This document shows positions 6,001 to 12,000 of a stretch of 33,926 bases of DNA, one piece after another; position 1 is the first letter of the stretch; every line of letters begins with the position of its first letter. Source of the stretch: a virus (Duplodnaviria; Heunggongvirae; Uroviricota; Caudoviricetes); IMG/VR virus record IMGVR_UViG_2671180296_000010, positions 1 through 33,926 of that record; one strand, 5' to 3'. A program made the position numbers.

Positions 6001-9000
6001 ATCCCGGGAGGTAAACGGGCATTTCAGTTCAAGGCCGTTGCCGTCACTGCATAAACCATCGGGAGAGCAGGCGGTGCGCATACTTTCGTCGCGATAGATG
6101 ATCGGGGATTCAGTAACATTCACGCCGGAAGTGAATTCAAACAGGGTTCTGGCGTCGTTCTCGTACTGTTTTCCCCAGGCCAGCGCCTTAGCATTAACTT
6201 CCGGAGCCACACCGGTGCAAACCTCAGCCAGCAGGGTGTGGAAGTAGGACATTTTCATGTCAGGCCACTTCTTTCCTGAGCGGGGCTTTGCTATCACGTT
6301 GTGAACTTCTGAAGCGGTGATGACGCCGAGCCGTAATTTGTGCCATGCATCATCCCCCTGTTCGACAGCTCTCACGTCGATCCCGGTACGCTGCAGGATA
6401 ATGTCCGGTGTCATGCTGCCACCTTCTGCTCAGTGGCTTTCTGTTTCAGGAATCCAAGAGCTTTCACTGCTTCGGCCTGTGTCAGTTCTGACGATGCGCG
6501 AATGTCGCGGCGAAATATCTGGGAACAGAGCGGCAATAAGTCGTCATCCCATGTTTTATCCAGGGCGATTAGCAGAGTGTTAATCTCCTGCATGGTTTCA
6601 TCGTTAACCGGAGTGATGTCGCGTTCCGGCTGATGTTCTGCAGTGTATGCGGTATTTTCGACAATGCGCTCGGCTTCATCCTTGTCATAGATACCAGCAA
6701 ATCCGAAGGCCAGACGGGCACACTGAATCATGGCTTTATGACGTAACATCCGTTTGGGATGCGACTGCCACGGCCCCGTGATTTCTCTGCCTTCGCGGGT
6801 TTTGAATGGTTCGCGGCGGCATTCATCCATCCACTCGGTAACGCAGATCGGATGATTACGGTCCTTGCGGTAAATCCGGCATGTACAGGATTCATTGTCC
6901 TGCTCAAAGTCCATGCCATCAAACTGCTGGTTTTCATTGATGATGCGGGACCAGCCATCAACGCCCACCACCGGAACGATGCCGTTCTGCTTATCAGGGA
7001 AGGCGTAAATTTCTTTCGTCCACGGATTAAGGCCGTACTGGTTGGCGACGATCAACAATGCGATGAACTGCGCATCGCTGGCATCACCTTTAAATGCCGT
7101 CTGGCGAAGAGTGGTGATCAGTTCCTGTGGGTCGACAGAATCCATGCCGACACGTTCAGCCAGCTTCCCTGCCAGCGTTGCGAGTGCAGTACTCATTCGT
7201 TTTATACCTCTGAATCAATATCAACCTGGTGGTGAGCAATGGTTTCAACCATGTACCGGATGTGTTCTGCCATGCGCTCCTGAAACTCAACATCGTCATC
7301 AAACGCACGGGTAATGGCTTTTTTGCTGGCCCCGTGGCGTTGCAAATGATCGATGCATAGCGATTCAAACAGGTGCTGGGGCAGGCCTTTTTCCATGTCG
7401 TCTGCCAGTTCTGCCTCTTTCTCTTCACGGGCGATCTGCTGGTAGTGACGCGCCCAGCTCTGGGCCTCAATCCGATCCTGGATGTAATAAGCGTTCATGG
7501 CTGAACTCCTGAAATATGGCTGTGCGAATACCGCCCGCGTAATGCCAGGCTGATTGATCAAATGGGAAAGGGGATTAGTGATTCAGGCCGTTGCCGCGTC
7601 CGTCGAGAAAAACTTCCACGAGCAAATCACGGGTATAAGTGCGCTCGATGCCGCGATGCAGATAAAGCCGTCCGCGTAAATTAGCTGATGCAGTCCAGGT
7701 ACCATCTTTGTGTTTGACCAGCATTCCTGGCATGACCGCACCTCGATTAACGGTCTGCGTTCCGTAATGTTGATGAACCATAAAAACTCCTGCCCGTAAG
7801 CTGGGCTGCTGAACATATAGAGACTTCTGCGCGTATTCAGGCGGTGGATGGCCGCCGGTTGTCATAACTAAGCTGCCTCGTTGAAGCGACTGAGGTATGA
7901 GGTGTTGAGTTGAGTTGATTTCAGCTGGTCACACCGACGTTCACGCGTCCGCTTCACCCCTCGCACTTCCCGGAGCCTGCTGAAATTCAAGCTGCGGATC
8001 TAAGCGGTCATCGCAACGGTGAATCAGGTGGTTGCCGTATCGTTGTGTTGTTGCGATGAATTTATTTAAAACTATAGTTGTTTTGTCGTCAACAACAAAA
8101 GTTGTTTTATTGGGTTTTTTAGATGTAAATGGTTGTATTTAGGATGGATTTATTTTGTGACTTGCATCGCATAGCGATAACTGAAGCGAGGTTGTGGTGG
8201 TTTTTTGAACAGTATACGTGATGAGGGGAGGGGACAAAAGAAAACCCGGCACGGTGGCCGGGCTAGATCTTAAAGTATTTATCTTTTAGAGATGTAGATG
8301 CAAAATTTTTTGCCTTTGAAAATTTTTTGTCATCAGAAGAGCTTGTGAACTCATCTTTTTTGTAGGGAACCGCTAATGCTGCATCACGTCTGCGAGGCAG
8401 CTTGCTTACTTCCTCGCACTTTTTCATGATCAGTTATCCTTTAATAACCTATACAGTTTTGTAGGGGTACATCCTGAGGATATTGTTAAGTTCGTAGCAC
8501 GCCTTTTCCGCCCACCATCGTATAAACGAAAACCAGTAGTAGACGAATTTTCTGCGTCAAAAACTATAGACAGTATAACGTCCCCAGACTTTTTTTGCCA
8601 TTCATATGTGCCGTTAGTTGGTTTTGTCATCTGTAGACGCCAGTCAAGAACGCCATCACTTATAGCTGAGAGATCGTTTAGTACGTCTAGTACGGATTGA
8701 TATCTTTCATTTGGATCTACATGAATGCATTTGTTTACTATTGTTATCAATTTTTTATGTATGTGGGAAGGATACTCTTTTAATGGATAGGAGCCATCAA
8801 TTATCGACTCTCTGAGTTGTTCAATCGTTCTAAATGCAGATCTTTCTCTTTCAAAATTATCATATCCAACACACATTCTATATATGGTTAATCCTGCCTG
8901 ATATATGTCATATGTGAAATTATAATCATTTGTTGATAAAGAAAAATATTCCGGTGGCACATGAAAATGATATCCAAACTCAGGCGCAGCTCTCGATTCC

Positions 9001-12000
9001 TCATTGACTAACTGAGACAATCCAAAGTCAGATAGCATGGCCTCATTTCTGTTTGATATCATGATGTTATTAGGTTTTATATCAAAATGCATAAGACCTT
9101 TTGAGTGTATATGATAAAGCCCACTTAAAAATTGAATAGAATACCGTATTATCTCCCTGCTCGTAAGATTAATCTTTTTTATTAATTGGTTTAGCGAACC
9201 ATTATGATAAAATGGCATGGCTATATAGATATTGCTCTCACATTGAGCAGCATACTGAACTTGCACAATATTTGGATGTGCATGTTTATAGAGAAGCCTT
9301 GCTTCATTAAAGTAGTCGTCGTGGTTAGTGTTTTCTTTTTTTTCTATTTCTTTAATCACCAAGTCATGAGCTAGGTGTCTGTCATGAGCCAGATATACTT
9401 TTGAAAAACAACCCTGTTCTTCTAGATCACGAATCCATTCGAATGCTACATCAGCTCTTTTGTATGGAGTCAGCATCCCCTTACCTCCGCAGATAGTGCA
9501 GCCAAAACAGCTTCATTTGTTTCAGTTGTAAAACCAGAATTATCGATTCCATTTATATTACGGTGTGACTTCAATATTTCTTTATACTCGATCTCTGTTA
9601 GGTTCAATGATGACTTCATACCAGATTTTCTAATGGTGTAATATCTTCTTACATCACTGCTTGAAAATGCTTCTTGAATAACAGCTTCTATATAAAGGCG
9701 GTCAATGCTAAGATTATCAGAGTTTGATTCAGTAACGCGTATAGCAGCTAATTCAACATTATATAAATTAAGAATGTCGAGGATGTTATTTCGCACATAC
9801 TTTAATTTTTCTGGTGTGTCTAAGGTCGAAGGTATTTTAATAACATCAACACATTTGAGTGCAGACTCATCGGTGCAATATACAACAAAAGATGTAACTT
9901 TGGGCGCCGCCCTAACACCTAGTATTCTCATTTTTTATATCCCATTTTAGAATCAGGCTGCGTTTCTGCAGCCTCTCTCATCACCCAAATGTCTAATCAG
10001 GCTATTATTGATTATCCATGTTTCCTGTATGTTTGCGGCATGCTCCCAATAACTTTCCCGAAGATAAACACCCGGTTCATCTCGTCTTTCTCGATTGGGT
10101 CCCACGGTGAGTAGCTCTTGTTATCAGAGATAACCAGCAGTTTATCCTTCATCATTTGCAGGCGCTTTACATGGGCTGTGTCGTCGTACAGAAACGCATA
10201 GATACCATCACCGTCGAAAGATTTAACCGTGATATCAACGAACAGCAGATCACCAGGTTCAATCGTTCCTGACATGCTGTCACCGCGTACGTTAATGATG
10301 CGGATATTTTCTGCCTTCCTGCCATCGAACATGTGACGAGCATCGTCAAACGAGTACTCAACCGAGCGTAGGACTTCTACAAACTCACGGTTGATGACAC
10401 CCGGCCCGGCACTCACTTCTATATCAAGAACGTCAATCTTAAAGTATTTGGAATGGCTGACAGTTGGTTGTATTGGTTGCACTGTACTGTCTGACATATT
10501 TCCAACGCCAGAAGATAACCATTCTGCGCGCACACCCAAAGCGTTCGCGATCTCCACGATTTTAGTTGTTTGATTAGCTTTCCCTGTTTCGATTTTCTGA
10601 ATAGCAGCCTGGCTAACCCCGACCAAATCCCCAAGCGCCTTTTGTGTAAGGCCTCGCGCTAATCTGGCTTCTTTAAGTCTTTCTGAGAGTGTTGTTTTCA
10701 TAGTCCAAATGTACAACCAAGGTTTTATTTCATCAAACGAAAATGGTTGTTGACTAAAAACAACCATAGTTTTAATCTTGATTCAAATTAACCACGGAGG
10801 TTGTTATGAACCCAGCTATTAAAACAGCGATCAATATCGTTGGTTCACAAAAGAAACTGGGTGCTGCTTGCGAAGTTTCACAGCAGGCCGTCTATAAGTG
10901 GCTTCACAACAAAGCAAAGGTATCCCCTGAACATGTTGGCAGCATTGTTACGGCTACTGGTGGAGTAGTGAAGGCATACCAGATTCGCCCGGATCTTCCG
11001 AAGTTGTTTCCACACACCGAAAAGAACGCAGCTTAAATTTCCATTTCACGCTCTTTAACAATAAGCAATCAACTTAACAGTCAATTCAAACTAAAGGAGT
11101 CAATTATGCAACCACTTACATACCAACAGACTAGCGGATTTAGCCCGACTGCGGTGATAAATCGTTCTCAAACAAAACAGGTGCCAGGCCACGAAAAAAT
11201 CCGTGATGCCGTCCGCGCCTGGTCGGCTGAAGATAATCAGGATGTCGTTGCCACACTCATTGTGAATGAGTATCGGGAGCAGGGCGGCGGCACCATCGAT
11301 TTCCCTGATGATGTCAGCCGTGCACGCCAGAAGCTGTTCCGCTTCCTCGATAACAAATTCGATTCTGAAAAATACCGAAATAACGTGCGTGAACTGACCC
11401 CGGCAATCCTGGCGGTACTACCGCTGGAATATCGCGGTTACCTGGTTGAGCAGGATAGCTTCATGGCTAGGTTGGCTGAAATGGAAAAGGAACTCAGTGA
11501 GGCAAAACAGGCTGTCATTCTCAACGCACCACGCCACCAGAAACTGAAGGAAATTAGTGAAGGTATTGTGTCGATGTTTCGTGTGGACCCAGATCTGGCT
11601 GGTCCATTGATGGCGATGGTTACTACCATGCTGGGGGCGATATGACAGGTTCAGAAATGGCGAAAGCCGGTCTGCTGGAACAGAACCGACTTTCAGGTGC
11701 AAATCGTAACGCACTCATTGCGGAAGGAATTATGGCAAACACTGCTGAGATATTCAATTTTCCAGTGCCGGATGAGGCACAAAAGGAGCGGCGCGTGGCA
11801 GATCTCGATGATGGTTATACGCGCATTGCAAATGAGTTGCTGGAAGCTGTGATGCTGGCCGGATTAACACAGCACCAGCTTCTGGTCTTCCTGGCTGTCA
11901 TGCGCAAAACATATGGTTTTAATAAAAAACTGGATTGGGTGAGCAACGAGCAACTTTCCGAGTTGACCGGGATATTGCCGCACAAGTGTTCTGCTGCAAA

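What the first reader, a model, noticed from the sequence alone, without database searches (positions are those of the whole stretch)
8232..10011. AT-rich three-gene operon in the rex position: unknown 153-aa protein, Hanks-type Ser/Thr kinase and 54-aa Lys-rich peptide; candidate phage-exclusion (abortive infection) system
Seen in sequence: directly downstream of the CI-like repressor gene and upstream of OL/pL (where lambda carries rexA-rexB) lie three minus-strand ORFs with overlapping or abutting stops and starts (ATGCTGA at 9470-9476; TGATCATGA at 8425-8432), a strong SD (GGAGGT) before the kinase and an intrinsic terminator right after the third ORF. The block is visibly AT-rich (roughly one-third G+C by eye) against flanking lambda-like DNA, which indicates horizontally acquired cargo. 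The middle protein has all hallmark eukaryotic-like kinase motifs (VIK, HFDIKPNN, DFG, PPE, HVDPNERY) plus an about 80-aa C-terminal extension; the two partners have no motifs I recognise. Established knowledge: lambda RexAB, expressed with cI in the lysogen, is an exclusion system, and phage 933W is reported to carry a eukaryotic-like kinase (Stk) next to cI that excludes phage HK97. Inference: this operon is a lysogen-expressed defence module in which the kinase is the effector or sensor and the flanking proteins are regulator, trigger-sensor or substrate. I cannot tell from sequence alone whether it is the 933W stk operon or a distinct family.
Basis: partly seen in the sequence, partly recalled or inferred. 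Interest (0 to 1): 0.85.

Follow-up and report, generated by a model that had tools for sequence, protein, structure and literature searches.

The report
Known 933W Stk kinase exclusion operon
This three-gene block is a 97%-identical copy of the stk operon of Shiga-toxin phage 933W, whose kinase is already reported to abort infection by a competing phage, so it is real but known; the one fresh point is that its two small partner genes always travel with the kinase.

Summary
The block sits between a CI-like repressor and an operator-like site. It is not a new family. Window 8237-9994 is 96.8% identical in DNA to phage 933W L0081-stk-L0083, and the proteins are 91%, 97% and 99% identical. Papers citing Friedman 2011 and Tyler 2004 report that 933W Stk is cotranscribed with cI, is activated by HK97 infection and aborts that infection.

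New here:
- The RuvC-like gene, the kinase and a 50-61 aa basic peptide keep the same order and coupling in about 75 loci, from Enterobacterales to Pseudomonas, Acinetobacter and a Bacteroidota contig. This points to a three-component system whose partner roles are untested.
- The kinase C-terminal domain has no recognisable fold relative.

The parts
8237..9994 (-). Cassette shared with phage 933W (hairpin, three genes, terminator); low G+C
   Evidence: 96.8% DNA identity to AF125520 9911-11666. Homology ends just past the terminator on the left and just below the cI stop on the right. G+C 0.31-0.40. Present in 225 of 5426 complete E. coli genomes.
9470..9931 (-). 153-aa RuvC-fold protein (933W L0083 homologue) lacking the canonical RuvC catalytic residues
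9483..9488 (-). Shine-Dalgarno GGAGGT for the kinase, inside the end of the upstream ORF
   Evidence: Read directly from the sequence.
8430..9476 (-). 348-aa Hanks-type protein kinase Stk: kinase domain about residues 10-265, family-specific C-terminal domain about 272-348
8263..8427 (-). 54-aa basic hydrophilic peptide (933W L0081 homologue)
   Evidence: 91% identical to L0081; PHROG 4063. A 50-61 aa ORF with pI 9.6-10.4 starts -3 to +11 nt from the kinase stop in 40 of the 42 distinct loci tabulated, and also in the Acinetobacter and Bacteroidota loci.
8233..8264 (-). Intrinsic terminator ending the operon (equivalent of 933W tM)
   Evidence: 8-bp stem with 6 G-C pairs, then a T-rich tail. 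933W annotates the homologous site as 'tM; putative terminator for pM transcript'.
9955..9974 (-). Hairpin AGGCTGC-AGAAAC-GCAGCCT between the cI stop and the first gene, at the right edge of the cassette; no T run
   Evidence: Read from the sequence. Not called as a terminator. Function unknown.
10012..10701 (-). CI-type repressor (context; presumed source of the operon's transcript from pRM)
   Evidence: HTH_3 + Peptidase_S24; PHROG 4 transcriptional repressor E 8e-73. The listed ATG at 10767 lies inside the OR palindrome, so Met23 (10701) is the likelier start.
8077..8096 (.). Operator-like palindrome GTTGTTTTGTCGTCAACAAC (putative OL)
   Evidence: One of only two matches to GTTGTT-N5-10-AACAAC in the window; 0.02 expected.
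10746..10764 (.). Operator-like palindrome GTTGTTGACTAAAAACAAC (putative OR)
   Evidence: Lies between the divergent cI and the cro-like gene 10806-11036.

Best explanation
This is an allele of the phage 933W stk operon, a low-G+C cassette carried in the immunity region of lambdoid prophages. It most likely works as follows. In the lysogen it is transcribed together with cI from the maintenance promoter, and transcription stops at the terminator just before OL (reported for 933W; inferred here). Translational coupling yields three proteins: a RuvC-fold protein, the Hanks-type kinase Stk and a 54-aa basic peptide. Stk is nearly silent in uninfected cells. A product of a superinfecting phage (HK97 in the published case) activates it, and the resulting phosphorylation aborts the infection (reported for 933W). 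The rest is inferred here. The RuvC-fold protein is not a resolvase but a non-catalytic regulatory or sensing subunit, because Arg or Lys occupies two of the four metal-binding positions. The small peptide is a third subunit, an inhibitor or adaptor. The three form one functional unit, because they are inherited together across phyla.
For: Identity to 933W. Published function of 933W Stk and its cotranscription with cI: PMC3681748, PMC3564112, PMC6356687. Operon anatomy. Position between the repressor and the operator-like sites. Kinase catalytic motifs conserved. RuvC fold. Loss of catalytic carboxylates. Co-occurrence: the kinase directly follows the RuvC-like gene in every one of about 73 loci with enough downstream DNA, at 32-100% and 39-100% identity. 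The two identities are correlated (Spearman 0.95, n = 21). The same pair occurs when starting from distant kinases in Pseudomonas, Acinetobacter and Crocinitomicaceae. The small ORF is conserved in position; the chance of a 50-codon open frame at this G+C is about 0.025 per locus. The cassette sits beside different repressors and, elsewhere, next to Wadjet genes or an Abi_2 gene plus an integrase.
Against: No experiment was done on this allele: 12 of 348 kinase residues and 5 of 54 peptide residues differ from 933W. The primary papers (Friedman 2011, Tyler 2004) are not held, so their content is taken from citing papers and memory; whether stk alone suffices for exclusion could not be checked. 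The catalytic loop HFDIKPNN is of the Ser/Thr type by sequence, whereas the published activity is described as tyrosine phosphorylation. Several invariant Glu residues in the RuvC-like protein (68, 82, 87, 140) leave room for a non-canonical active site.
Confidence: 0.85

Rival explanations
1. Only the kinase matters (a single-gene kinase defence like PD-T4-6 or staphylococcal Stk2). The two flanking ORFs are passengers or unrelated genes.
For: The published 933W work is cited for Stk alone. PADLOC PD-T4-6 single-gene models match the kinase domain at E 1.5e-36.
Against: The RuvC-like gene precedes the kinase, with overlapping or abutting codons, in every locus examined down to 32%/41% identity and across phyla, in prophage and non-prophage contexts. 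The identities co-vary. The small ORF stays open at the same place in nearly all lineages.
Confidence: 0.1
2. The RuvC-like protein is an active nuclease and the true effector (it degrades phage or host DNA). The kinase is its sensor or regulator.
For: Full-length RuvC fold. Invariant acidic residues Glu68, Glu82, Glu87 and Glu140. Nucleases are common defence effectors. RefSeq and PHROG call it a RuvC-like resolvase.
Against: The positions of RuvC Asp7 and Glu66 hold Arg (120 of 121) and Arg or Lys (121 of 121) across the window protein and 120 representatives, and the Asp138 position is not conserved. Pfam RuvC is below threshold. The 933W phenotype is attributed to kinase activity.
Confidence: 0.12
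3. The module mainly regulates the prophage's own lysis-lysogeny decision or host physiology (as the Pf KKP kinase-phosphatase module does). Exclusion would be a side effect.
For: It sits in the immunity operon next to cI. A prophage kinase module with dual regulatory and defence roles exists in Pseudomonas Pf phages (PMC11341870).
Against: No phosphatase gene is present. The same module occurs away from repressors: among Acinetobacter prophage tail genes, next to Wadjet genes, and next to an Abi_2 gene plus an integrase. 933W Stk is reported to be nearly inactive in uninfected lysogens.
Confidence: 0.08

Closest known systems
Phage 933W stk operon (L0083-stk-L0081; Friedman et al. 2011, Mol Microbiol 82:567; Tyler et al. 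2004)
   Same: Same three genes, order, overlaps, ribosome-binding site and terminator. 96.8% DNA identity; 99%, 97% and 91% protein identity. Same place downstream of cI.
   Different: A different CI repressor and operators. No L0084-like 113-aa gene between cI and the first gene. 12, 2 and 5 amino-acid differences in Stk, L0083 and L0081. The window's allele (>=99%) is the rarer one, in 30 of 225 carrier genomes.
Lambda RexA/RexB
   Same: Accessory exclusion genes located between cI and OL/pL, expressed with cI in the lysogen, with an abortive-infection outcome.
   Different: No sequence or domain similarity. Rex uses a sensor plus a membrane channel. Here there is a soluble kinase, a RuvC-fold protein and a hydrophilic peptide.
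Kinase-based defences: staphylococcal Stk2, E. coli PD-T4-6, MADS MAD6, Pf KKP
   Same: A Hanks-type kinase domain acts as the antiphage component. PADLOC mad6 matches at 1.2e-48 and PD-T4-6 at 1.5e-36 over the kinase domain.
   Different: Those are single genes, or parts of much larger systems, or are paired with a phosphatase. NCBIfam MADS6 scores 113.6 bits against a cut-off of 460. None has the RuvC-fold partner, the small peptide or this C-terminal domain.
RuvC Holliday junction resolvases (bacterial RuvC, lactococcal phage 67 RuvC)
   Different: 12-17% identity. The catalytic Asp7 and Glu66 positions hold Arg and Arg/Lys, and only the Asp141 position keeps an acid (Glu140). It is always encoded with a kinase.

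Membership tests
933W stk operon | Near-identity of all three proteins to L0083, Stk and L0081 | tested here: met
   99%, 97% and 91% identity over full length; 96.8% DNA identity.
933W stk operon | Same gene order, coupling and terminator, downstream of cI in a lambdoid prophage | tested here: met
   The difference is that no L0084-like gene is present.
933W stk operon | Cotranscription with cI from pRM in the lysogen | not testable with these tools
   Reported for 933W (PMC3564112 citing Tyler 2004). Here there is only an 80-nt gap with a hairpin and no promoter-like site on the minus strand.
933W stk operon | Kinase activated by HK97 infection; exclusion of HK97 | not testable with these tools
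   Reported for 933W. Needs phage challenge of this allele.
Hanks-type (eukaryotic-like) protein kinases | Pkinase domain above the Pfam gathering score | tested here: met
   159.7 bits against a cut-off of 31.7.
Hanks-type (eukaryotic-like) protein kinases | Catalytic residues: VIK Lys, alpha-C Glu, HxD..N loop, DFG, (A/P)PE | tested here: met
   K42, E58, H130-F-D132-I-K-P-N-N137, D150-F-G and P174-P-E are present and nearly invariant in 36 homologues.
Hanks-type (eukaryotic-like) protein kinases | Substrate class (Tyr versus Ser/Thr) | not testable with these tools
   The loop DIKPNN is Ser/Thr-like by sequence. Citing papers describe tyrosine kinase activity.
RuvC resolvase | RuvC / RNase H-like fold | tested here: met
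RuvC resolvase | Catalytic tetrad Asp7, Glu66, Asp/His138, Asp141 | tested here: not met
   Arg7, Arg65, a variable position and Glu140. Arg7 in 120 of 121 aligned sequences (window plus 120 representatives); Arg or Lys at 65 in all 121.
RuvC resolvase | Pfam PF02075 at the gathering score | tested here: not met
   13.6 bits against 22.2, E 0.062, N-terminal half only.
Lambda RexAB | Homology to RexA or RexB; membrane channel component | tested here: not met
   No such Pfam, PHROG or PADLOC hits. The peptide is hydrophilic, GRAVY about -1.0.
PD-T4-6 (PADLOC) | Match to the family HMMs | tested here: inconclusive
   E 1.5e-36, but only over the generic kinase domain, and mad6 scores higher.
PD-T4-6 (PADLOC) | Single-gene system | tested here: not met
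   A three-gene module is conserved.
MADS (MAD6 kinase) | NCBIfam equivalog cut-off | tested here: not met
   113.6 bits against 460. The genes flanking the cassette in the window are the repressor, kil, gam and bet.

The most novel reading that the evidence does not exclude
Stk is not a lone kinase. It is the enzymatic core of an obligate three-component defence system found from Enterobacterales to Pseudomonas, Acinetobacter and Bacteroidota. In this reading, a catalytically dead RuvC-fold protein (Arg or Lys in place of the metal-binding Asp and Glu) acts as the sensor or gatekeeper, for example by recognising branched phage DNA or a small DNA-binding phage protein such as HK97 gp68. A fast-evolving basic peptide tunes or restrains the kinase.
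Probability: 0.35. Interest if true: 0.55.

Novelty: already known. Interest (0 to 1): 0.3.

Why it matters
For the scan, this candidate can be closed. It is the 933W stk operon, present in about 4% of complete E. coli genomes, and its exclusion function was published in 2011. A modest residual interest remains. Recent defence literature and catalogues largely overlook this system: one 2024 paper calls Stk2 the only other kinase-based defence. Databases label its first gene a Holliday junction resolvase although the catalytic residues are missing. The strict three-gene conservation also gives a clear, cheap genetic experiment to ask how a prophage kinase is kept silent and then triggered.

Tried and rejected
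- Primary papers: Friedman 2011 (by DOI) and Tyler 2004 (PMC524894) are not held. Their content is taken from citing papers only. Searches for gp68/HK97/kinase gave unrelated hits.
- Published kinase + RuvC-like defence system: one unrelated review found.
- PDB sequence search with the RuvC-like profile: no relative (best E 0.52). hhalign against single E. coli RuvC gives low probability (E 0.035), so that alignment counts only because Pfam, MAFFT and the fold match agree with it.
- PADLOC, NCBIfam and Pfam for the 54-aa peptide: nothing. The PADLOC tm_HEPN hit (E 0.015) and the NCBIfam lipo_EMYY hit for the 153-aa protein were dismissed as noise.
- Peptide as a tyrosine pseudosubstrate: a C-terminal Tyr-Phe-like motif recurs (KYFKI, QYFKV, SYFFKK) but is replaced by HF, SF, RF or HI in several lineages. 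Kept only as speculation.
- Rfam: no RNA family in or near the cassette.
- Antisense ORFs 9204-9374 and 9705-9950: no supporting evidence; ignored.
- HK97 trigger in the window: no homologue of HK97p55 (NinH) is present.
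Full report
**Observation.** The three minus-strand ORFs are at 9931-9470 (153 aa), 9476-8430 (348 aa) and 8427-8263 (54 aa).
- The first two overlap in ATGCTGA.
- GGAGGT lies 6 nt before the kinase ATG.
- The kinase stop and the next ATG are separated by two bases.
- A G+C-rich hairpin followed by a T-rich tail (8264-8243) overlaps the last stop codon.
- G+C falls to 0.31-0.40 across the block, against about 0.52 on the left flank and 0.45-0.52 on the right.

**Surroundings.** The gene upstream (10012-10701, or 10767 as listed) is an HTH_3 + Peptidase_S24 CI-type repressor. 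Cro-like and CII-like genes diverge from it on the right; kil, gam and bet lie to the left. A palindrome GTTGTT-N7/8-AACAAC occurs exactly twice in the window, at 10746-10764 and at 8077-8096, where 0.02 matches are expected by chance. These are plausible OR and OL operators. The block therefore occupies the position that rexAB has in lambda.

**What it is.** Megablast of 8100-10100 against phage records gives 96.8% identity over window 8237-9994 to phage 933W and many other Stx phages. The annotated features under the match are L0081, stk, L0083 and the terminator tM. The proteins are 99% (L0083), 97% (Stk) and 91% (L0081) identical, without gaps.

Homology begins just past the terminator and ends just below the cI stop, so the unit exchanged between phages is hairpin + three genes + terminator. 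The repressor differs from that of 933W, and 933W has an extra 113-aa gene (L0084) that the window lacks. The cassette alone is found in 225 of 5426 complete E. coli genomes: 30 at 99% or more (the window's allele) and 195 at 95-99% (the 933W allele).

**What is known.** I could not obtain the primary papers. Three held papers summarise them:
- 933W Stk is a eukaryote-like tyrosine kinase that is cotranscribed with cI (PMC3564112).
- It shows little or no activity in uninfected cells, is activated on HK97 infection and takes part in exclusion (PMC3681748).
- It blocks the HK97 replication cycle as an abortive-infection system (PMC6356687).

From my own memory of the Friedman 2011 abstract, the trigger is HK97 gp68. 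By gene order in NC_002167, that is HK97p55, annotated NinH, which lies next to a RusA resolvase. This mapping is an inference. The window encodes no homologue of that protein.

**The kinase.** Pfam Pkinase matches at E 1.2e-46. K42, E58, HFD132IKPNN, D150FG and PPE are present and nearly invariant in 36 homologues. The catalytic loop is of the Ser/Thr type by sequence, so the reported tyrosine activity would imply dual specificity; this cannot be tested here.

**The 153-aa partner.** Its family is small and discrete: 444 clusters at E <= 1e-3 among 1.84 billion representatives.
- Three alignments (Pfam, hhalign, MAFFT) place Arg7 on RuvC Asp7. hhalign and MAFFT also place Arg65 on Glu66, and MAFFT places Glu140 on Asp141.
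- Across the window protein and 120 full-length representatives, position 7 is Arg in 120 of 121 and position 65 is Arg or Lys in all 121. Arg47, Arg78, Glu82 and Glu87 are invariant, Glu68 is present in 119 of 121, and position 140 is Glu or Asp in all.

The fold is therefore RuvC, but the canonical two-metal site is not there. The database name "RuvC-like Holliday junction resolvase" is a fold label, not a supported function.

**The module.** In every fetched locus with enough downstream DNA (about 73 loci), the kinase gene follows the RuvC-like gene with -8 to +12 nt between them. Identities range from 32-100% for the RuvC-like protein and 39-100% for the kinase, and the two are correlated (Spearman 0.95, n = 21).

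Starting instead from distant kinases gives the same pair each time:
- In Pseudomonas it lies next to an Abi_2 gene and an integrase.
- In Acinetobacter it lies among prophage tail genes.
- In a Crocinitomicaceae contig the neighbouring genes have no assigned function.

A metagenomic copy lies beside Wadjet JetC/JetD genes. In Enterobacterales the module usually follows a repressor, but of several unrelated types.

A 50-61 aa basic (pI 9.6-10.4), hydrophilic ORF starts -3 to +11 nt from the kinase stop in 40 of the 42 distinct loci tabulated and in the Acinetobacter and Bacteroidota loci. The chance of such an open frame at this G+C is about 0.025 per locus. Its sequence evolves fast. Only an N-terminal MK..P.RR-like motif and a C-terminal aromatic motif recur.

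**Mechanism.**
- Reported for 933W: expression in the lysogen with cI; a silent kinase; activation by an infecting phage; abortive infection.
- Shown here: identity of this locus with that operon; conservation of a three-gene unit; loss of the RuvC catalytic residues.
- Inferred: the RuvC-fold protein is a regulatory or sensing subunit, the peptide is a third subunit, and the C-terminal domain of the kinase mediates these contacts.

The rivals are a kinase-only system, an active-nuclease effector, and a role in prophage self-regulation. Each is listed with the experiment that would decide it.

**Verdict.** Interest is low to moderate. The residual value is the untested role of the two conserved partners and the likely mis-annotation of the first gene.

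Noticed in passing
window 8077-8096 and 10746-10764: The palindrome GTTGTT-N7/8-AACAAC occurs only at these two sites (0.02 expected), so they are probably the OL and OR operators of this immunity type. The listed cI ATG at 10767 lies inside the OR copy, so the true cI start is probably Met23 at 10701.
   Followed up: partly
window 7866-8076: No N-like antiterminator gene was recognised between the putative OL and kil (7575-7865). There is only a 40-aa ORF (7868-7990) with no PHROG hit, whereas 933W has N, L0079 and ssb there. The phage may use another early antitermination mechanism.
   Followed up: no
window 9955-9974 (minus strand): A 7-bp hairpin, AGGCTGC-AGAAAC-GCAGCCT, without a T run, lies between the cI stop and the first cassette gene. 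It sits exactly at the right edge of the DNA shared with 933W. It could be a processing or attenuation site.
   Followed up: no
L001 4763-5104 (933W L0084); L014, L043, L046: A 113-aa gene (ending ...CFFG) lies between the repressor and the RuvC-like gene in 933W and in some more divergent loci (RuvC-like about 70% identical), but is absent from the window. It may be an optional fourth gene of the region.
   Followed up: no
window 19070-19287 (+): Rfam STnc100 sRNA match (165.5 bits, E 1.3e-37). It is the only Rfam family found in the window.
   Followed up: no
window 16239-16589 (+): A RusA-type junction resolvase, 43% identical to HK97p54. No homologue of the neighbouring HK97p55 (NinH, which is gp68 by gene order) exists in the window.
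   Followed up: partly
NZ_CP051219.1 (hits H45/H56): In E. coli strain SFE8, the window-type allele of the cassette (99.8%) is interrupted by an IS3-family transposase. Two of the 226 cassette copies in complete E. coli genomes are on plasmids.
   Followed up: no
L002 1-3585: A metagenomic copy of the RuvC-like + kinase pair (43%/40% identity) lies directly beside Wadjet-like JetC and JetD genes. That is a defence-island context rather than an immunity region.
   Followed up: partly
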